Source: a virus (taxonomy: Duplodnaviria; Heunggongvirae; Uroviricota; Caudoviricetes). Taken from it: a stretch of DNA of 41,946 nt. Below the pieces are notes generated by a model, which saw nothing but the letters and a program-made list of their open reading frames with translations, did not search any database and was not told the DNA's origin. This document shows positions 2,789 through 13,265 of the stretch, piece by piece. Made by a program: the position numbers and the translations under genes. The stretch lies in IMG/VR virus record IMGVR_UViG_3300001242_000012; one strand, written 5' to 3'. Numbering within the stretch: position 1 is the stretch's first letter; every line of letters starts with the position of its first letter.

Positions 2789-3017
2789 ATGCTGTACTCT
2801 CCTTTGCCCATGTTACTTGTTTATTATCATCTATGTAGTAATCAATATCCGACTCTGGGATTTCATATACTTCTTCATAACTAGAGTGCTTATCACATCC
2901 AAATAATGTGTCTACAAGTATTAGTAATTCCTTAATCTTATCCTTACTACACTTAATATATCCATTATTACCGCACCTTGAAGTAATGTAGTATACTTGT
3001 GGATTGCTTATATCCAT
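2775..3017 (-). CDS. hypothetical protein
   Basis: ORF in a tightly packed operon. Confidence 0.65.
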   Translation of the reverse strand: MDISNPQVYYITSRCGNNGYIKCSKDKIKELLILVDTLFGCDKHSSYEEVYEIPESDIDYYIDDNKQVTWAKESTAYGQV

Positions 3018-3026
3018 TATGCATCT

Positions 3027-3344
3027 CTACCTTCTGTTTATACTTCCTCCAGCTCTAACGCTACCTCCTACGTCATCACAATTGACTGACCCACCAGCAA
3101 TTACATCCCCTCCTACATCATCACAGTTTACAGATCCTCTTGCAGAGACATTACCCGCTATTCTACCATGCACTGATACGCTCTTATCAGAGATAAGGCT
3201 AACGAGGTCACCTTTTACAGTAATAGTTGTACCTACTGCTTCTGTTATAGTTTTTCCATCAACCGTTATCACATTATCTGATACAGTTATATTATTTCCA
3301 TGCACTGTAATACCATTAATTGTTATCATCCAAATTCTCCTCAT
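3027..3344 (-). CDS. beta-solenoid/beta-helix repeat protein
   Basis: Repeated GSVNCDDVGG and V.G.V.A motifs. Confidence 0.7.
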   Translation of the reverse strand: MRRIWMITINGITVHGNNITVSDNVITVDGKTITEAVGTTITVKGDLVSLISDKSVSVHGRIAGNVSARGSVNCDDVGGDVIAGGSVNCDDVGGSVRAGGSINRR

Positions 3345-3409
3345 ATGCTATGTAAATTTCTAGGCGGTGGGAACTAGCCGACTATGTCGCACGCCCCATC
3401 TCCGCCAAC

Positions 3410-3482
3410 TGGATGGCACGGTAAGAGTCGAACTTACGTCACCAGCTTGTGGGCCGGAGCTCTACCATTAAGCTACATGCCA
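3410..3482 (-). tRNA. tRNA-like RNA with a 6-nt anticodon loop (CCACAA), U73 and encoded CCA
   Basis: Acceptor UGGCAUG/CGUGCCA, canonical D and T arms, stem CCGGC/GCUGG. Confidence 0.75.
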
Positions 3483-3489
3483 GTGTATT

Positions 3490-3702
3490 CTAGCAACATC
3501 TATACATTTTACATGGTCTAAAATCAAAGAGTTCAATAAGCTCTCCGTGGTTGTAGCAACAGTACCAAGCTTCTATTCTATTATCTTCAACAATCTTAGT
3601 ATTAGGATTAAGCACTATACCACCGCTAGCTCGTTTATTAATACAGTGTCGGCAACTCTTACAAGACCTTAACTTGAGCATTCCTAATATTTTATTAAAC
3701 AT
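3490..3702 (-). CDS. Cys-rich hypothetical protein
   Basis: ORF with GAGGTG RBS. Confidence 0.65.
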   Translation of the reverse strand: MFNKILGMLKLRSCKSCRHCINKRASGGIVLNPNTKIVEDNRIEAWYCCYNHGELIELFDFRPCKMYRCC

Positions 3703-4379: not shown

Positions 4380-4578
4380 ATAATTCCTCCATATCAATTT
4401 TAATAAAATACTTATTGAATAAGGCATCATCATCTATATCCAAACCATCACTAATATTATAAGAGTTGTTATCGTCAGCTACAACTCTATATTTTCTCAT
4501 GCTTTCATATATTGGATAGATTTTATCTACTGTTAAGCGTCCATCGGCTCTTAGCTTCGCTATAGCATATATTTTCAC
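4366..4578 (-). CDS. small TxDKIY-family protein
   Basis: LTVDKIY...DDN...F.KYF. Confidence 0.75.
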   Translation of the reverse strand: MKIYAIAKLRADGRLTVDKIYPIYESMRKYRVVADDNNSYNISDGLDIDDDALFNKYFIKIDMEELYAET

Positions 4579-4587
4579 ACAATCACC

Positions 4588-4788
4588 TCATTCTCGATTA
4601 TAGATATCTATAATATATATAAAGTATCTATTAAACAATTCATCTGTATCGGTATCCAAGCTATCAGACACTCTGCAAATAGAAGCATCGTCTGATTTTA
4701 TCCAGTACCTATCTCCAAGTCTGTTCATATCATAGATTTTGTCAATAGTTAATGTCTCAGATACATTACGTTTTGCTACTGCTAACAT
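4588..4788 (-). CDS. small TxDKIY-family protein
   Basis: LTIDKIY...SDD...FNRYF. Confidence 0.75.
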   Translation of the reverse strand: MLAVAKRNVSETLTIDKIYDMNRLGDRYWIKSDDASICRVSDSLDTDTDELFNRYFIYIIDIYNRE

Positions 4789-6355: not shown

Positions 6356-6550
6356 TTACCTCAAATATGGATCTAGATCTTCATCACATATCCGACATAT
6401 CTTTAGAACTGGATGATAGGCTGGTGTTCCATCTGGGAACTTGTGATTGCATCCTCTAGTTAGTTTCCGTAACTTTGAGTCAATATTGATTAGAAACTTT
6501 CCACGCTCTTCCTTTAAAGCCATTACCTCATTTATTGTCCTCTGATTCAT
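6356..6550 (-). CDS. hypothetical protein (C.H...C.IC)
   Basis: ORF with AAGGAG RBS. Confidence 0.65.
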   Translation of the reverse strand: MNQRTINEVMALKEERGKFLINIDSKLRKLTRGCNHKFPDGTPAYHPVLKICRICDEDLDPYLR

Positions 6551-6570
6551 AATGATTCTCCTTAGTCATT

Positions 6571-6645
6571 TGGTTGCAGAGGTGGGACTCGAACCCACAA
6601 CCTTTAGCTTATGAGGCTAACGAGCTACCTTTGCTCTACTCTGCG
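6571..6645 (-). tRNA. tRNA-fMet-like (CAU)
   Basis: C1:A72 mismatch, GAGC/GCUC D stem, loop CUCAUAA. Confidence 0.85.
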
Positions 6646-6646
6646 A

Positions 6647-6719
6647 TGGAAGGGAGAGAAGGAATCGAACCTTCATAGCTAGGGTCTTCCTAGGATGTTG
6701 CCTGTTACATCATCTCCCT
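6647..6719 (-). tRNA. tRNA-like RNA with an aberrant anticodon arm (5-nt loop AAGAC), U73 and encoded CCA
   Basis: Acceptor AGGGAGA/UCUCCCU, T arm GAAGG-UUCGAUU-CCUUC. Confidence 0.7.
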
Positions 6720-6887
6720 ATGATATTCATCATAAACCTTTTCATACTCTCTTTGTTCTTCCCAAGACTTAAAGTTCTTAGTTACTTCACAGTCCTCACA
6801 TACTAATGCTTTCACATCATCGAACGTTATATCTTTTAATACCATTGTCTTTTTACATATAGGACATTTTAATTTTTTATATTTCAT
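6705..6887 (-). CDS. small Zn-ribbon protein
   Basis: CPIC...CEDC. Confidence 0.7.
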   Translation of the reverse strand: MKYKKLKCPICKKTMVLKDITFDDVKALVCEDCEVTKNFKSWEEQREYEKVYDEYHREMM

Positions 6888-6910
6888 TCGAGATCTCCTA
6901 AAAATATTTA

Positions 6911-7073
6911 TATTTGGGGAGGGATTAACGATTCTTCACCCTCGATTCCTGCCCTATACGACCATGATGTATAGCTCCGTATTGGCTTCGCTAACAGGTA
7001 TAGTTCTTTTCTTTGTCATAGACTTTTAATCTATTACCAACTCTTTGATCGTATGACTACTATCACCCAAATA
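6911..7073 (-). ncRNA. candidate multibranch structured RNA
   Basis: Terminal helix UAUUUGGG/CCCAAAUA plus several internal helices; no ORF. Confidence 0.45.
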
Positions 7074-7080
7074 ATTGTCC

Positions 7081-7146
7081 ATGGGAGAATAGTTAAGTAG
7101 GGTATATTATCTGTACGTAGAAGTAACCCTACTTTACACTACCCAT
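7081..7146 (-). ncRNA. Y RNA-like unit A (short, tRNA-less), just downstream of the Ro60 gene
   Basis: AUGGG/CCCAU outer stem, UAGUGUA, 9-bp inner stem, UACUUC, UAUUCU. Confidence 0.7.
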
Positions 7147-7152
7147 GAAATC

Positions 7153-8769
7153 TTAATATCTGTTTATAGTTTCAAGCACATTAGTGTTGTTGACTTCGCA
7201 TGTTTTAACGAAGTCAAAGATCTTTTCTGACCAACCAGCTATCCTATATACGTTAGGTTCATCCATAGGTACCGGTGTAGTACCATATGAAGATAAATCA
7301 ATAGTATATAGTTTGATATCTGGATTTATTGTTCTCCTATAGTCTTTCAGTAAATCAGCTAATGCCTTTCTGCTGCCACCACCATAACCCCAAGCAGTAA
7401 CACCATAGCATTGTTCGTCAGAGAAGATGAAGATTCTATCCGCAAAGGTTTTCTTCTTCAGTAGCTCTTCGACTACACGGTAAGCATTTGTAGACATACC
7501 TTTGGTATCTGCCCTAGCTATCCTATTCATGTTAGTGAATATGGAGTCAGCCGGATTAAGGTTAACAGGGCACCAATCAGTACCGAAAGCACCTACTATA
7601 GAAGACTCACAGAAACCATGAGCCATAGCACATAGTAAATTAGCAATGTTGGCACATGATACCTTGCTTCTTTCTGATACAGCTTGTGACATAGAACCAG
7701 AATTATCAGCTGCAAGCAGTGTTATACCTTCAAGCATAGGGACATTCTGTACACTTATACTAATGGCCTCAGATAATGCTGCAAGTACTTTAGATATATT
7801 AGGATTAGTACCAATTAAGCTTTCCATTTCACGATAAGCACTATAAAATCTAAATGGAAGCTGCTTAGATCTAAGAACTTGATTAGGGTCCTTCAATCTC
7901 TCAATGACACTACCTATACATTTAGCATCAGCATTAATGATGTTCCTTATATTACGGAGCATAGCCATGAAAGGTAAGTTAAGTTCATCCCATACTTCAG
8001 GCTTGTTACCAAACTTACTTACAGCCATCTCCCAGGTCATATCACCAGCCCTAATAAGATGTCTAGCTTCTTCGAAGTTATCTATCTTAGCAAACTCTTT
8101 ATGAGCTTTGTGCAGCACCATAACGTCATCGTTCTCTATATCATGACACATATACTTAAAGATAGCATCGTGCAGTACATCACTTGGTTTAGCACGACAT
8201 ACTCTGATTACATCTTTAATCTTAACTGATTTACTCCTGTCATACTTTAAGAAATGATACTCACCGAAAGTATTCAATACATCGGAGATACCTTTCTTAA
8301 GTGAGTTAGGGAAGGCATGAGTGCCACCTGCTTGACCTTTATCACCTATGTCACCATGTTTACTAACCCAGTAAGCAACTAGTTCAGCAGGTTCATCAGC
8401 ACGCTTTAATATACGAGGAACCCATTTACGAACGAATGGCTTACACTCATTGATTGCTGCAGCTTCACCCAGTAGTACTATAGGTATAGATCTTAAGTAC
8501 ATTTCATTTCTAGCATAAGCAGCTAGCTTTAAGATAAACTCAGGATCTATAGCTGCTACTTGCTTAATGTCTCTGATAATACCAGCAAGAGTTTCAGTGT
8601 TTTTCTGGTAGTAAGTATCAGACAGTAAGCAGTTACATACTTTCTTATACAGTCTAGTTTTAGCATCCATTTCGAAAGCTACACCACCTGCGAGGTTCTT
8701 AATTACATCAGGTCTGTTGACCACACTAGCCAATCTACTGGCAGAATTAAATTTAGACATTAGTGTCAC
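7153..8769 (-). CDS. rsr: Ro60/TROVE-domain RNA-binding protein with C-terminal vWA domain
   Basis: N...GG.AF, DPEFILKLA.YAR....LRS, PFMAMLRNIRN, SKQLPFRFYSAY, DNSGSM (MIDAS), IFSDEQ, IAGWSEKIFDF. Confidence 0.95.
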   Translation of the reverse strand: MTLMSKFNSASRLASVVNRPDVIKNLAGGVAFEMDAKTRLYKKVCNCLLSDTYYQKNTETLAGIIRDIKQVAAIDPEFILKLAAYARNEMYLRSIPIVLLGEAAAINECKPFVRKWVPRILKRADEPAELVAYWVSKHGDIGDKGQAGGTHAFPNSLKKGISDVLNTFGEYHFLKYDRSKSVKIKDVIRVCRAKPSDVLHDAIFKYMCHDIENDDVMVLHKAHKEFAKIDNFEEARHLIRAGDMTWEMAVSKFGNKPEVWDELNLPFMAMLRNIRNIINADAKCIGSVIERLKDPNQVLRSKQLPFRFYSAYREMESLIGTNPNISKVLAALSEAISISVQNVPMLEGITLLAADNSGSMSQAVSERSKVSCANIANLLCAMAHGFCESSIVGAFGTDWCPVNLNPADSIFTNMNRIARADTKGMSTNAYRVVEELLKKKTFADRIFIFSDEQCYGVTAWGYGGGSRKALADLLKDYRRTINPDIKLYTIDLSSYGTTPVPMDEPNVYRIAGWSEKIFDFVKTCEVNNTNVLETINRY

Positions 8770-8784
8770 TCCTTATAATTTGAT

Positions 8785-8871
8785 ATGAGAGAATAAATGA
8801 ATAGGGTAATTTGATGTTTCAATAAGATACTAATTTGTATATATGAAGTAACCCTATCCTACACTACTCAT
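8785..8871 (-). ncRNA. Y RNA-like unit B (short)
   Basis: AUGAG/CUCAU outer stem with the conserved motifs. Confidence 0.7.
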
Positions 8872-8879
8872 AAATTTGT

Positions 8880-9017
8880 ATGGGAGAATAATCACATAGA
8901 GTAGCTTTTAGTGCTCTAACCAACTGAGCTACAGAACCTTTTGATGAGGCCCTGGTAGGACTCGAACCTACGACCACTCGATTACAATTCGATGAAACTC
9001 TATGCTACACTACCCAT
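8880..9017 (-). ncRNA. YrlA-type Y RNA unit C (circularly permuted tRNA module)
   Basis: T arm GUAGG-UUCGAGU-CCUAC precedes a loop-closed acceptor stem, then D arm UAGCUCAGUUGGUUAGAGC. Confidence 0.85.
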
Positions 9018-9024
9018 AATATTG

Positions 9025-9162
9025 TATCAGGAAGAATTGTTCGTTAAGAGTACATAGTGCTCTACCAGCTGAGCTACGGAGCTATCAGTTGCTCTGATGG
9101 GACTCGAACCCATGACCACTCTATTAAATGTAGAAGTAACTCTTAACTACACTGTCCTGATA
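9025..9162 (-). ncRNA. YrlA-type Y RNA unit D
   Basis: T arm AUGGG-UUCGAGU-CCCAU, closed acceptor stem, D arm UAGCUCAGCUGGUAGAGC. Confidence 0.85.
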
Positions 9163-9170
9163 ATAAGCTT

Positions 9171-9311
9171 AGATTAGGAAGAATAAGCTATAAGGGTACA
9201 TTACGTTGCCTTGACTACTTGGCTAACCCACTATGGTTGTGGGTGAGAGATTTGCACTCCCGATCACGGCTGAAGATGCGAAGTAACCCATTATATACAC
9301 TATCCTAATCT
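9171..9311 (-). ncRNA. YrlA-type Y RNA unit E
   Basis: T loop UGCAAAU, ACCCAC/GUGGGU closed acceptor stem, D arm UAGCCAAGUAGUCAAGGC. Confidence 0.8.
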
Positions 9312-9319
9312 TAAAATTG

Positions 9320-9459
9320 TTAGGGAGAATTAAGCGATAAGAGACTATCTAAACCAGTGCCTTGGACCGCTTGGCTAACCCGTGATAGCCACGGGTGGAG
9401 GATTTGAACCTCCGGATGCTGGTGCCCTATTGAAGTAACTCTTATCTACACTACCCTAA
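9320..9459 (-). ncRNA. YrlA-type Y RNA unit F
   Basis: GGAGG-UUCAAAU-CCUCC, ACCCGUG-GCUAU-CACGGGU, D arm UAGCCAAGCGGUCCAAGGC, CUGGU/ACCAG stem. Confidence 0.88.
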
Positions 9460-9467
9460 TAGTTTGC

Positions 9468-9534
9468 GATAGGAGAATAATTAATAGTAGGGTGGCACTT
9501 TTATCAGAAGTAACCCTACATCACACTACCTATC
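9468..9534 (-). ncRNA. Y RNA-like unit G (short)
   Basis: GAUAGG/CCUAUC outer stem with the conserved motifs. Confidence 0.7.
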
Positions 9535-9541
9535 AATATTT

Positions 9542-9625
9542 TAATGAGAGAATAATTGGACAGAGAGCTTTGTATATAAATAAGAAGTTTATTTTTGAAG
9601 TAACTCTGCCCTACACTGCTCATTA
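9542..9625 (-). ncRNA. Y RNA-like unit H (short)
   Basis: UAAUGAG/CUCAUUA outer stem with the conserved motifs. Confidence 0.7.
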
Positions 9626-9769
9626 ATTACGTTGTGCTGGTGGTGCTCCTGGTCTAGAACTTACAGGAGCAGAATTGAGTCCTTGCTTTCTGACTCTACC
9701 CTGTGTAAGTAGAGCTTTATTAGGTTTAATACTATCATGTTTGAATAGATTTAACAACCATTTAAGCAT
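9623..9769 (-). CDS. small basic protein, 48 aa (MLKWLLNLFK...RPGAPPAQRN)
   Basis: Manual translation; AAGGAUGGU RBS-like sequence. Confidence 0.55.
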   Translation of the reverse strand: MLKWLLNLFKHDSIKPNKALLTQGRVRKQGLNSAPVSSRPGAPPAQRN

Positions 9770-9785
9770 AATACCATCCTTTCAT

Positions 9786-9873
9786 TGGAGGAGAGTGTAG
9801 GATTTGAACCTACGCAGGTGTTACCCTGACCTTTGATTAGCAATCAAGTACAATGCCACTCTGTCAACTCTCC
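9786..9873 (-). tRNA. tRNA-Ser(GCU)
   Basis: Loop UUGCUAA, long variable arm, CCA end (U73). Confidence 0.85.
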
Positions 9874-9878
9874 ATATC

Positions 9879-9956
9879 ATATGACCATTTGTGTCACGAA
9901 TCAGCCCACTCTGGACACCCTTCGCACCTCTGGCTACTCCCGCAGCCTGGTCATAT
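9879..9956 (-). ncRNA. candidate GC-rich three-way-junction RNA
   Basis: 9-bp terminal helix, GGCUGC-GGGA-GUAGCC, GUGUC/GACAC. Confidence 0.45.
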
Positions 9957-9965
9957 AAATTAAAC

Positions 9966-10054
9966 TGGCGACCGGGTGAGGATTTGTACCTCACTTCTAG
10001 TATATACTCTCCCAACTGATATATGTCGCTGCAGTTCGATTTGATATACCCGGT
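9966..10054 (-). ncRNA. degenerate tRNA-like element
   Basis: ACCGGG/CCCGGU, T arm UGAGG-UACAAAU-CCUCA, GCCA end; no D or anticodon arm recognisable. Confidence 0.5.
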
Positions 10055-10143
10055 AAAAGTATACTCTAAGCATTTTTGTTATAAGTTACTTATTGCGCTA
10101 ATAGGGCTTATAACAAAAACCATAGGTGATTGTTTTAACTTGA

Positions 10144-10362
10144 TTAAACTACCGGCCTTATAACTGTTTTGAATAGGCAGGATTCAAACCTGCTTGGTCC
10201 GGAATACGGTTCAGCTACCTTCGGTTTATCACGCCGATGCTGTACCCTATCGTATCTTATATGTTTTGGTAACTTGACATCCTTACTCTTGGCCTTCGGT
10301 TCAGGACTTCTTATATCTCTGCATATAGTAACTTTAGGTGTTCTCACCACGCCGCTATTCAA
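10144..10362 (-). CDS. basic hypothetical protein
   Basis: ORF track. Confidence 0.5.
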   Translation of the reverse strand: MNSGVVRTPKVTICRDIRSPEPKAKSKDVKLPKHIRYDRVQHRRDKPKVAEPYSGPSRFESCLFKTVIRPVV

Positions 10363-10382
10363 AAGTCAAAGAGGTTTACTAC

Positions 10383-10457
10383 TGGTCTGGGTGGCAAGGC
10401 TCGAACTTGCGACCACCTGCTCCCAAGGCAGGCATGCTACCACTGCACTACACCCAG
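10383..10457 (-). tRNA. tRNA-Pro(UGG)
   Basis: Loop CUUGGGA, C1:G72, ACCA end. Confidence 0.93.
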
Positions 10458-10462
10458 ATGGT

Positions 10463-10539
10463 TGGTGCACCATGAAGGACTTGAACCTTCAACCTACCGA
10501 TTAAGAGTCGGTTGCTCTAGCCAATTGAGCTAATGGTGC
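10463..10539 (-). tRNA. tRNA-Lys(CUU)
   Basis: Loop CUCUUAA, ACCA end. Confidence 0.93.
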
Positions 10540-10542
10540 ATG

Positions 10543-10748
10543 TAAGCGGGTAAGGATTTGCACCTTACATGTCATCAGGAGCTTATCCCTGATGGTCTAG
10601 CTGTTTTTACCTCTAGACAAGGATCTATGAACTCAATAGCTATCTAGAATTACTATATAGCGTCTACTATTGCCCTAAGAAAGGTATGCATCCCTTTTGG
10701 AAAACAGGCTTTACCACCGATTAAGGTGTCTATTCTCGCCACCGCTTA
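10543..10748 (-). ncRNA. 206-nt expanded tRNA-Leu-like RNA
   Basis: UAAGCGG/CCGCUUA, T arm GUAAGG-UGCAAAU-CCUUAC, long variable-arm-like hairpin, large inserts. Confidence 0.65.
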
Positions 10749-12681: not shown

Positions 12682-12930
12682 TTACTGGTTCTGAATGTCA
12701 TCAATCTTCGGATAATAGAATACAACGAAACCTTTACCATCTGGTTCTGATTCAGCAGAAACAAGTTCAACATTAGATAGTCTTCCATCAAATGTTTCTC
12801 TATGTAGCCCTGATAAAAGGTCTCGATCACTTATCTCATCTAATACCTCAACTAGATGTCCATAGTCATATGGATTTCTTACCTCTGCTTCTATCATTCC
12901 TTCTAGTGTGTAGTACATCCTTATCTTCAT
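12682..12930 (-). CDS. acidic hypothetical protein
   Basis: ORF track. Confidence 0.65.
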   Translation of the reverse strand: MKIRMYYTLEGMIEAEVRNPYDYGHLVEVLDEISDRDLLSGLHRETFDGRLSNVELVSAESEPDGKGFVVFYYPKIDDIQNQ

Positions 12931-12956
12931 ATTGAATCACTACCTTTGCGGTATCA

Positions 12957-13265
12957 TTAAATATCATAACATCTTTTATATCTAACATAACTTTGATATA
13001 TCCTTAATGATTGCCTTTCTTTGGGTTTAAGAATACTATTCTTCTTCTCCCATTTACACATCCAACAGCTACAGGAGGTATTATGTTTAGCAAGTCTACC
13101 TGGCTGTTCAATATATCTATCAGAATAATTTCGCATATTACGCCAAGATCTTTGGCCTTCCATCCTTCTATTTCTACGGTAGTTTATTATGCGCATTCTT
13201 TGATGCCTCTTATATGCTCTACCTCGTTTATTAGGTACGAAACCAAAGAGTAAGTATACCTCCAA
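12957..13265 (-). CDS. basic hypothetical protein (CSCWMC motif)
   Basis: ORF track. Confidence 0.6.
   Translation of the reverse strand: MEVYLLFGFVPNKRGRAYKRHQRMRIINYRRNRRMEGQRSWRNMRNYSDRYIEQPGRLAKHNTSCSCWMCKWEKKNSILKPKERQSLRIYQSYVRYKRCYDI

What the first reader, a model, noticed from the sequence alone, without database searches (positions are those of the whole stretch)
8880..9459. Four circularly permuted tRNA modules from two tRNA classes
Seen: in units C-F the order is variable loop - T arm - acceptor 3' strand - short loop - acceptor 5' strand - U8A9 - D arm. The acceptor end is sealed and the conserved stem replaces the anticodon loop. C and D have GCUC/GAGC D arms. E and F have GCC/GGC D arms of the Gln/His/Cys/Leu style. 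F is a near-perfect permuted tRNA (7-bp acceptor, 5-bp CUGGU/ACCAG stem). E still has ACCA at positions 73-76 inside its closing loop. Established: this permutation is the YrlA Y-RNA architecture. Inference: repeated independent capture of tRNA genes into the Ro-binding scaffold, giving elbow mimics that cannot be charged and offer no anticodon to cleave.
Basis: partly seen in the sequence, partly recalled or inferred. Interest (0 to 1): 0.85.

Follow-up and report, generated by a model that had tools for sequence, protein, structure and literature searches.

The report
Phage Y RNAs carrying permuted tRNAs
A 244-kb groundwater phage carries eight small "Y RNA" genes around its Ro60 gene. Four of them contain a tRNA wired in circularly permuted order: a known design (YrlA), but here in two different tRNA flavours that bear on how such mimics arise.

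Summary
On the minus strand, units C (8880-9020), D (9028-9162), E (9174-9310) and F (9321-9461) each read variable loop, T arm, acceptor 3' strand, short loop, acceptor 5' strand, U8A9, D arm, with tRNA-exact spacing. Cut open and re-joined in silico, all four are called tRNAs by ARAGORN, against 0 of 1000 shuffles.

They are four of eight handle-closed units flanking a TROVE+vWA Ro60 gene. The same handle marks 130 units in 50 sources, usually beside Ro60, with strong secondary and tertiary covariation. So these are YrlA-type Y RNAs, a known kind. This scan has met phage Ro60/Y-RNA arrays before on other DNA.

- There are two lineages, not four captures. C/D share 79% identity and have relatives in other phages. 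E/F share 71% and have a tRNA-Gln-type D arm. Identity between the classes is 43-50%.
- C and D keep an anticodon-arm-like hairpin.
- E encodes ACCA at positions 73-76. NCCA there recurs in 11 of 49 modules (0.37 expected). This fits the published dimeric-tRNA origin model and possible RNase P opening, so "cannot be charged, no anticodon" is not supported.

Tree tests had no power. No expression data exist.

The parts
9321..9461 (-). Unit F: Y-RNA handle plus a permuted tRNA module (core 9353-9423). The D arm is Gln-type (9359-9375). T arm 9397-9413. Acceptor is 7 bp (9390-9396 with 9378-9384). Closing loop GCUAU (9385-9389). The 5-bp stem ACCAG/CUGGU is at 9419-9423 and 9353-9357.
   Evidence: 105 bits; the minimum-energy fold gives the permuted cloverleaf
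9174..9310 (-). Unit E: handle plus a permuted tRNA module (core 9204-9268). T arm 9245-9261 has a UGCAAAU loop. Acceptor strands are 9238-9244 and 9226-9232. The loop ACCAU (9233-9237) places ACCA at positions 73-76. The D arm (9208-9223) is Gln-type and has AG in place of G18G19.
   Evidence: (84.4 bits)
9028..9162 (-). Unit D: handle, an anticodon-arm-like hairpin (9119-9135), then a permuted tRNA module (core 9056-9120). T arm 9097-9113. Acceptor strands 9090-9096 and 9077-9083 form 5 of 7 pairs. D arm GCUC/GAGC is at 9059-9074.
   Evidence: YrlA 39.0 bits; 107.7 bits
8880..9020 (-). Unit C: handle, an anticodon-arm-like hairpin UCGA-AUUGUAA-UCGA (8978-8992), then a permuted tRNA module (core 8910-8978). 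T arm 8955-8971. The 7-bp acceptor is 8948-8954 with 8932-8938. D arm GCUC/GAGC is at 8913-8929.
   Evidence: YrlA 42.9 bits; tRNA model 28.7 bits over 8947-9014; 112 bits
9544..9626 (-). Short Y-like unit with the handle only and no tRNA module.
   Evidence: 45.1 bits
9469..9536 (-). Short Y-like unit with the handle only.
   Evidence: 27.9 bits
8785..8874 (-).
   Evidence: 47.2 bits
7153..8769 (-). Ro60 orthologue with TROVE and Ro60-vWA domains. The likely start is the ATG at 8759, which follows an AAGGAG ribosome-binding site.
   Evidence: (TROVE E 1.4e-33; vWA_Ro60 E 2.9e-7)
7081..7149 (-).
   Evidence: (39.7 bits)

Best explanation
Units C-F are four of eight YrlA-type Y RNA genes in the Ro60 locus of a jumbo phage.

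Shown:
- Each RNA is closed by a conserved handle. The 5' side reads UAGUGUAG, then a 7-8 bp helix, then a GUUACUUC bulge. The 3' side reads ..UUAUUCUC.
- This handle travels with Ro60 genes in many phages.
- Each module has the T arm, closed acceptor and D arm of a tRNA in permuted order.
- Secondary covariation, and covariation of the D-loop/T-loop contacts 18-55 and 19-56, support an L-shaped elbow.

Inferred:
- The handle binds the phage Ro60.
- The units are cut out of a long tRNA/Y-RNA/Ro60 transcript.
- Each tRNA-like elbow is a tether or protective cap that tRNA enzymes recognise. Modules with a 7-bp acceptor (F, C), and especially E with its encoded ACCA, may be opened by RNase P as in M. 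smegmatis YrlA. That would give a two-piece RNA with a tRNA-like 3' end.

Origin (inferred):
- There are two lineages. C/D belong to an old, widespread Y-RNA lineage that also keeps an anticodon-arm-like hairpin.
- E/F carry a tRNA-Gln-type D arm and a closing loop N73-C-(C/U)-A-U. This is what the junction of two head-to-tail tRNA genes 1 nt apart looks like, and such a pair exists in this phage.
- Because all units share one handle, the E/F module was most likely swapped into an existing scaffold by recombination with tRNA genes, not built from nothing.
For: Ro60 lies next to the array, and the eight units are the only ones in the 244-kb genome.

The handle motif, searched alone, found 48 viral contigs. 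Model R1 then found 130 units in 50 sources, and 31 of 42 unit-bearing loci hold Ro60 alongside.

Covariation:
- 93.5% of cells are paired, against 41-46% when partners are slid. All 31 pairs show double changes, and the covariation score is 0.487 against about 0.07.
- Tertiary contacts: G55 occurs in 3 modules, and all three have AG instead of GG in the D loop (Fisher p 0.003). The 19-56 pair appears as G-C, A-U and U-A.

De-permuted shells are called tRNAs, against 0 of 1000 shuffles.

Classes:
- The E/F D-arm motif is tRNA-Gln(UUG) in 86 of 119 viral matches.
- F matches a phage tRNA-Gln in 29 of 32 columns, from the D arm through an anticodon-loop remnant.
- E's 3' part matches a phage tRNA-Ile 3' end including CAACCA, 34 of 38, E 2e-5.
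- D's core is 85.5% identical over 62 nt to a tRNA-Met|tRNA-Met junction of phage PAU.

Traces of tRNA genes:
- NCCA sits at 73-76 in 11 of 49 modules, against 0.37 expected, and CCA never occurs deeper in the loops.
- All 14 phage tRNA genes encode CCA, and one pair is 1 nt apart.

Other:
- No sigma-70-like promoter or terminator lies on this strand across 6500-10600.
Against: - There are no RNA data: no RNA run holds the locus. Transcription, processing and Ro60 binding are therefore all inferred.
- Rfam YrlA scores for C and D are below the gathering score (69 bits), and E and F get no hit at all.
- The published GNCGAAN0-1G Ro-binding motif is absent from all eight units.
- AU tests on the 42 comparable columns cannot reject one clade for the four modules (p 0.78), or for all Y modules (p 0.26). 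Two origins rest on long specific matches, not on a tree.
- The tRNA-Ile and tRNA-Gln matches were found by searching a 2.3-Gb library with the modules themselves, so they are ascertained.
- D's module does not fold as a cloverleaf by minimum energy and has two acceptor mismatches.
- The role of the tRNA-like domain is unknown even for Salmonella YrlA.
Confidence: 0.72

Rival explanations
1. Single origin. All four modules descend from one ancestral YrlA module by duplication within the array, followed by compensatory drift. The Gln-like D arm and the CCA are convergent or selected features, and no second tRNA was captured.
For: All eight units share one handle. C-D and E-F are sister pairs. 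The AU test does not reject one clade for the four (p 0.78), or for all Y modules (p 0.26). D and T stems vary widely by compensatory change across the family.
Against: Core identity between the classes is only 0.43-0.50, about the level of unrelated tRNAs. The E/F D arm matches a 17-specified-base motif that is tRNA-Gln in 86 of 119 viral matches. The match runs on into the stem, the variable loop and a loop remnant of F. Relatives carry still other tRNA types, including Leu-like modules with UG at 8-9, and in L042 a long variable arm.
Confidence: 0.22
2. Decoys. The modules act mainly as uncleavable, unchargeable tRNA-elbow mimics. They soak up host tRNA-targeting defence nucleases or other elbow binders, with Ro60 only as a carrier.
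For: The array sits inside the phage's only tRNA cluster. The elbow contacts are conserved and covary. Having several different D and T stems in one array would offer a panel of mimics.
Against: C and D keep a 7-nt anticodon-like loop. Across the family that loop reads Y-U-NNN-R-A in 28 of 47 modules. E encodes ACCA, and F and C have 7-bp acceptors of the kind RNase P opens in M. smegmatis YrlA. No defence nuclease or binding partner was tested.
Confidence: 0.2
3. Permuted pre-tRNA genes. The handle is excised, the ends are ligated (the phage has RtcB), and the acceptor loop is opened. This would yield working tRNAs, as in Cyanidioschyzon merolae.
For: The genome encodes RtcB. F has a full 7-bp acceptor, a 5-bp anticodon stem and a possible loop remnant. 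E has ACCA. Wang et al. raise this possibility for some YrlAs.
Against: The same handle closes four units that have no tRNA part, and it tracks Ro60 rather than tRNA needs. E, C and D have only 2-3 bp where an anticodon stem should be. No splicing endonuclease or bulge-helix-bulge motif was looked for or seen. E departs from the tRNA consensus at positions 18 and 55.
Confidence: 0.05
4. Decayed tandem tRNA genes with no function of their own. This is the false positive that Chen et al. warned about.
For: True tRNA-tRNA junctions in related loci do hit the module part of model R1. D resembles a real tRNA-Met junction.
Against: No D arm precedes any unit and no T arm follows one. Acceptor strands pair within a unit, not between units. 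Unit-specific outer and inner stems covary. The arrangement recurs beside Ro60 in dozens of phages.
Confidence: 0.02

Closest known systems
YrlA (Rfam RF02553): Y RNA-like A of Salmonella, M. smegmatis and more than 250 bacteria and 22 phages (Chen et al. 2014, PMC4201824; structure in Wang et al. 2018, PDB 6CU1)
   Same: It is encoded next to Ro60. It has a terminal stem plus a tRNA-like domain in the order T arm, closed acceptor, D arm. The elbow contacts and the Levitt pair are kept. Several copies per locus are known. M. smegmatis YrlA, with a 7-bp acceptor, is opened by RNase P and receives CCA.
   Different: - The handle sequence differs and lacks GNCGAAN0-1G.
- Scores are below Rfam gathering for C and D, and there is no hit for E and F.
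- E and F break the 'extremely conserved' D and T stem sequences, having a Gln-type D arm instead.
- C and D add an anticodon-arm-like hairpin, making a five-way junction.
- CCA is already encoded in E.
- There are eight units in one array.
Yrl1 and Yrl2 of Thermus phage phiLo with phiRo60 (NAR 2025, PMC12135203)
   Same: Phage-encoded Y-like RNAs lie directly upstream of a phage Ro60 gene. Binding to Ro60 and complexes with host PNPase were shown there.
   Different: In the passages read, the phiLo RNAs are described as stem-bulge-stem Y RNAs with a CGAA motif. The term tRNA-like does not occur in that paper. There are two RNAs rather than eight.
Dimeric-tRNA origin model for YrlA (Sim and Wolin 2018, as cited in Wang et al. 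2018, 10.1101/312249)
   Same: In the model the T arm comes from an upstream tRNA and the D arm from a downstream tRNA. The NCCA traces and the match to the PAU junction fit it.
   Different: The model derives the acceptor stem from the spacer and leaves one versus many origins open. Here the acceptor strands look like the tRNA acceptor strands themselves, with N73-CCA and a 1-nt spacer in the loop. The shared handle argues for module replacement in an existing scaffold.
Circularly permuted tRNA genes of Cyanidioschyzon merolae and some archaea (Soma et al. 2007; cited)
   Same: The 3' half lies upstream of the 5' half, the acceptor is closed by a loop, and the termini pair.
   Different: Those genes mature into working tRNAs through a circular intermediate. 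Here the termini form a Ro60-type handle that is shared with units lacking any tRNA part, and most modules lack a usable anticodon stem.
D. radiodurans Yrn1 (Chen et al. 2013, 2014)
   Same: It is a Ro60-bound Y RNA with a T-arm-like hairpin and a possible anticodon-arm-like hairpin.
   Different: The orientation of its T and D elements is opposite to that of YrlA. Its Ro-binding helix is of the metazoan type. No closed acceptor stem is present.

Membership tests
YrlA-type Y RNA (RF02553; Chen et al. 2014) | Encoded within 4 kb of a Ro60 (TROVE) gene | tested here: met
   Units C-F lie 111-692 nt upstream of, and on the same strand as, a TROVE+vWA_Ro60 ORF. Across the family, 31 of 42 loci hold Ro60 alongside.
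YrlA-type Y RNA (RF02553; Chen et al. 2014) | Score at or above the Rfam gathering threshold (69 bits) | tested here: not met
   C scores 42.9 bits (E 6e-8) and D 39.0 bits (E 8e-7). E and F give no hit at E up to 10.
YrlA-type Y RNA (RF02553; Chen et al. 2014) | tRNA-like domain in the order variable loop, T arm, loop-closed acceptor, D arm, enclosed by paired 5' and 3' ends | tested here: met
YrlA-type Y RNA (RF02553; Chen et al. 2014) | tRNA tertiary nucleotides (U8, A14, G18G19 with U55C56, R15-Y48) | tested here: met
   C, D and F have all of them. E has A18/G55, a combination that recurs in 3 modules and covaries.
YrlA-type Y RNA (RF02553; Chen et al. 2014) | GNCGAAN0-1G motif on the 5' strand of the Ro60-binding stem | tested here: not met
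   The motif is absent from all eight units. A different conserved handle, UAGUGUAG...GUUACUUC, takes its place.
YrlA-type Y RNA (RF02553; Chen et al. 2014) | Conserved D-stem and T-stem sequences (Wang et al. 2018) | tested here: inconclusive
   C and D have GCUC/GAGC. E and F have GCC(A)/(A)GGC. T stems vary freely across the family. I did not compare against the Rfam seed itself.
YrlA-type Y RNA (RF02553; Chen et al. 2014) | Bound by Ro60; carries pseudouridine 55 and dihydrouridine | not testable with these tools
   No RNA or protein data are available, and no RNA run was listed.
Circularly permuted pre-tRNA genes (Soma et al. 2007) | Termini form a splice motif, and joining them restores a 5-bp anticodon stem and a 7-nt loop | tested here: inconclusive
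   F has a 5-bp stem and a possible loop remnant. E has 3 bp, and C and D have 2 bp. A bulge-helix-bulge motif was not searched for. RtcB is present in the genome.

The most novel reading that the evidence does not exclude
The Ro60 handle is a reusable scaffold that repeatedly exchanges its cargo with tRNA genes by recombination at head-to-tail tRNA junctions. A phage thereby builds a panel of different tRNA mimics. Those that keep a 7-bp acceptor and an encoded NCCA (E here, and 11 of 49 modules in the family) would be opened by RNase P into two-piece, CCA-ended RNAs. These would present a real tRNA 3' end on Ro60. They might be aminoacylated, or they might serve with the phage RtcB in the repair or surveillance of cleaved tRNAs.
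Probability: 0.15. Interest if true: 0.75.

Novelty: new variant of a known kind. Interest (0 to 1): 0.5.

Why it matters
Wang et al. (2018) left open whether YrlA-type tRNA mimics arose once or many times from dimeric tRNA transcripts. They assumed that the acceptor stem came from the spacer.

This locus and its relatives give sequence-level material for that question:
- one conserved Ro60 handle carrying modules of clearly different tRNA types (Met/Ile-like and Gln-like here; Leu-like elsewhere);
- NCCA kept at positions 73-76 far more often than chance;
- a module that still matches a real tRNA-Met|tRNA-Met junction.

[quoted passage not shown] These stems were thought to be a sequence-specific docking site. 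The units of one array may therefore have different partners.

The tertiary covariations at 18-55 and 19-56 are comparative evidence for the elbow without a structure.

None of this changes the basic picture. These are Y RNAs of a phage Ro60, and their function remains unknown.

Tried and rejected
- Tree of 42 comparable columns (209 rows). E, F and one tRNA-Ile form a starred trio, but that tRNA had been fetched for its likeness to E. AU tests did not reject one clade for the four modules (p 0.78) or for all Y modules (p 0.26). The free search was worse than the constrained one, so there is no power.
- Expression. No RNA holder was listed for the locus.
- Laying four DNA runs gave only identical pieces of the same phage and short matches of other organisms' tRNAs to the T and D arms. 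There were no informative variants.
- The promoter and terminator scan found nothing on the minus strand. This is weak evidence only.
- The handle pattern in bacterial and archaeal genomes gave 76 matches. About 280 would be expected by chance for 16 specified bases in 596 Gb. Only 16 loci held real units by model R1, so the raw count says nothing about spread in bacteria.
- Minimum-energy folding of whole units or cores recovers the permuted cloverleaf for F and E, partly for C, and not for D. Folding energies alone are weak here (z from -1.1 to -3.5).
- Rfam at a permissive threshold gave no family for E or F.
- The first repeat search failed because I gave the wrong strand and was repeated.
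- Considered and dropped: that the tRNA-Ile likeness of E proves a chimera. My rough estimate is that such a match could arise by chance about once in ten searches of a library that size.

Full report
**Where this is.** The window is the minus strand of bases 34248-76193 of a 244,052-base virus record. The record comes from groundwater metagenomes. The window holds replication genes: Pol III alpha, NrdD, RecA, UvrD, DnaG, ThyX and UDG. It also holds all 14 tRNA genes of the genome, every one on the minus strand and every one with an encoded CCA.

**The observation.** On the minus strand, 8783-9626 consists of seven tandem units 5-11 nt apart.
- Each unit is closed by its own terminal helix and shares a handle. 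The 5' side reads UAGUGUAG, then a 7-8 bp helix, then GUUACUUC. The 3' side reads ..UUAUUCUC.
- An eighth unit lies 3 nt after the stop of the ORF that follows.
- That ORF (8769/8759 to 7153) is a Ro60 orthologue: TROVE E 1.4e-33, Ro60 vWA E 2.9e-7.
- Units C (8880-9020), D (9028-9162), E (9174-9310) and F (9321-9461) contain, without a spare base, variable loop, T arm, acceptor 3' strand, loop, acceptor 5' strand, UA, D arm and nucleotide 26.

**Is it more than chance?**
- Rfam's YrlA model hits C (42.9 bits, E 6e-8) and D (39.0 bits, E 8e-7). Both are below the gathering score of 69. It does not see E or F.
- I cut the four shells open at the acceptor loop and closed them with an artificial anticodon arm. 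ARAGORN called all four tRNAs, against none of 1000 shuffled shells. With their natural flanks, C, D and F still pass.

**The family.**
- The handle pattern alone (16 specified bases) found 48 viral contigs.
- A covariance model built from 18 units with a structure I specified found 130 units in 50 sources. Arrays hold up to 11 units.
- In 31 of 42 unit-bearing loci a Ro60 relative lies alongside. Most of these loci had been fetched by the RNA motif only.
- The Xanthomonas phage Tabio group has the same pairing, unannotated.
- In the whole genome only these eight units match, plus one partial match elsewhere.
- On the 130-unit alignment, 93.5% of cells pair, against 41-46% when partners are slid. 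All 31 pairs show double changes, and the covariation score is 0.487 against about 0.07. This alignment was fitted to the model, which inflates the figures somewhat. The untouched MAFFT alignment already showed perfect, varied T stems in 18 of 18 units.
- The D-loop/T-loop contacts covary. G55 (T loop UGCAA) occurs three times, always with AG instead of GG in the D loop (Fisher p 0.003). Pair 19-56 appears as G-C, A-U and U-A.
- E's odd T and D loops are therefore a recurring variant of the elbow, not decay.

**What it is.** These are YrlA-type Y RNAs.
- The layout, the Ro60 neighbourhood and phage occurrence are all published: Chen et al. 2014 report 355 YrlAs in 254 bacteria and 22 phages. 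Wang et al. 2018 say that most YrlAs "likely resemble circularly permuted tRNAs".
- This scan has also met phage Ro60/Y-RNA arrays repeatedly on other DNA.
- Differences from the described family:
  - The handle lacks the GNCGAAN0-1G motif.
  - E and F have a non-canonical D arm.
  - C and D, and 28 of 47 modules in the family against 13 +/- 3 in shuffles, carry a hairpin with a 7-nt loop between handle and variable loop. The loop profile is C/A-U-NNN-A/G-A, the signature of an anticodon loop.
- So in C and D the handle does not replace the anticodon loop. It branches off beside an anticodon-arm-like hairpin. The sub-threshold tRNA hit over 8947-9014 (28.7 bits) comes from this.

**One duplication, four captures, or something between?**
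- Over 42 comparable columns, C-D are 0.79 identical and E-F 0.71. Identity between the classes is 0.43-0.50. This is not one recent duplication, but it is two sister pairs rather than four captures.
- C's nearest neighbours are Y modules of other phages and a tRNA-Met (26 of 27 in the 5' part).
- D's core is 85.5% identical over 62 nt to the junction of two adjacent tRNA-Met genes of Sphingomonas phage PAU. The T arm matches the upstream gene 22 of 22. The spacer is ACUGAU against ACUAAU. The acceptor 5' strand and D arm match the downstream gene. The acceptor 3' strand has been changed so that it pairs within the module.
- The E/F D arm (UAGCCAAGNNGUC(N)AAGGCA) is that of tRNA-Gln(UUG) in 86 of 119 viral matches.
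- In F the likeness to a phage tRNA-Gln runs on through nucleotide 26, the stem and a loop remnant (29 of 32 columns). The variable loop is CAUCC against CAUUC.
- E's 3' part matches a phage tRNA-Ile 3' end, including CAACCA, at 34 of 38 (E 2e-5). I rate this as suggestive only, because it was found by searching a large library.
- Relatives carry further types, including Leu-like modules with UG at 8-9 and a GCGA...ACGC D arm, one (L042) with a long variable arm.
- A tree on 42 columns has no power. AU tests reject neither one clade for the four (p 0.78) nor one clade for all Y modules (p 0.26).
- My reading: two origins are favoured (about 0.55-0.6) on the strength of the long, type-specific matches. 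A single origin is not excluded.

**Traces of tRNA genes.**
- NCCA stands exactly at positions 73-76 in 11 of 49 modules with a loop long enough. Loop shuffling predicts 0.37 (0 of 5000 shuffles reach 11). CCA never occurs deeper in the loops.
- The loops of E and F are ACCAU and GCUAU. Both fit N73-C-(C/U)-A-U followed by position 1. That is the geometry of two tRNA genes 1 nt apart, as in this phage's own tRNA pair 6719-6647 | 6645-6571.
- This fits the dimeric-tRNA model of Sim and Wolin, quoted by Wang et al., with two refinements.
  - The acceptor stem looks like the tRNA acceptor strands themselves, not the spacer.
  - Because all units share one handle, later modules were probably swapped into an existing scaffold.
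- The CCA may also be kept for a reason. M. smegmatis YrlA, with a 7-bp acceptor, is cut by RNase P and receives CCA in vivo. E would need only the cut and a 1-nt trim.
- For these reasons I do not accept "cannot be charged" or "no anticodon to cleave" as shown.

**How it probably works.**
- Shown: the structure, the family and the Ro60 linkage.
- Inferred:
  - The array, the neighbouring tRNAs and Ro60 are transcribed together. No promoter-like or terminator-like site lies on this strand in 6500-10600.
  - The units are released, and the handle binds Ro60.
  - The elbow tethers a tRNA-binding partner or shields the RNA.
  - The differing D and T stems would give the units different partners.
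- The genome also encodes RtcB, about 60 kb away. This fits the proposed Ro60/Y-RNA/RtcB repair link, but proves nothing.

**Verdict.** This is a real, well-supported feature of a known kind, in a variant form. The architecture call is right. The evolutionary claim is half right. The functional inference is not supported.

Noticed in passing
outside the window: G000:C1:237056-237118 (L181:1057-1119, + strand): A free-standing permuted tRNA-like module with no Ro60 handle. It reads GGAGG, AGAGC, T arm CUGGG-UUCGAAU-CCCAG, a short closed acceptor, UA, the same Gln-type D arm as E/F (GCCAAGUGGUCCAAGGC), G, CCUCC. It lies between a DUF1256 gene and an unassigned 146-aa ORF, behind a TATAAT-like box and a GC hairpin. 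It could be a sibling or source of the E/F module, or the remains of a tRNA dimer.
   Followed up: partly
outside the window: G000:C1:5667-6773: The phage encodes an RtcB RNA ligase (413-aa frame, E 1.8e-49). There is also a marginal PolyA_pol/CCA-adding-like hit at C1:20851-20919. No Rnl2-type ligase was found.
   Followed up: partly
L033:12645-12782 (-), L014:7150-7269 (+), L030:3595-3731 (-): Units in other phages have the same handle, but their tRNA-like part appears to run in native order (D arm, anticodon arm, T arm). In L033 this looks like a whole tRNA ending in ACC inside the handle. So the scaffold may take tRNA cargo in more than one topology.
   Followed up: no
L042:3095-3258 (-), L013:3508-3676 (-), L228:5768-5926 (-), L198:6198-6335 (+): These are permuted modules with a tRNA-Leu-like 5' part: UG at 8-9 and a D arm GCGA/GCGG...ACGC. 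L042 also has GCCGAGG as its acceptor 5' strand and a 14-nt variable arm. L013 also has ACCA at 73-76.
   Followed up: partly
window 6647-6719 and 6571-6645 (-): Two tRNA genes lie only 1 nt apart (...UUCCA u CGCAGAG...). ARAGORN calls the first Ser(aga) with an odd anticodon arm. It also calls 3410-3482 as tRNA-??? with a 2-base anticodon.
   Followed up: no
window 8757-8769 (-): The listed GTG start of the Ro60 ORF (8769) lies inside the AAGGAG ribosome-binding site. The ATG at 8759 is the more likely start, giving 535 aa.
   Followed up: partly
L063 about 4500-4640 (+), L177 about 12900-13150 (-): tRNA genes with a Gln-type D arm are interrupted by about 100 nt in the anticodon region. These are intron-like inserts, and ARAGORN did not call them.
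   Followed up: no
L004 (Xanthomonas phage Tabio LR743528.1) 2979-3581 (-): Three unannotated YrlA-like units lie upstream of a 439-aa 'hypothetical protein' that is a TROVE+vWA Ro60 relative. The same holds across about ten related Xanthomonas/Xylella phage records.
   Followed up: partly
window 9243-9396 and 9577-9700: A soil-metagenome run (X8) holds contig pieces identical to these stretches. The phage or a very close relative may therefore occur outside the groundwater study. The share of words held was small.
   Followed up: no
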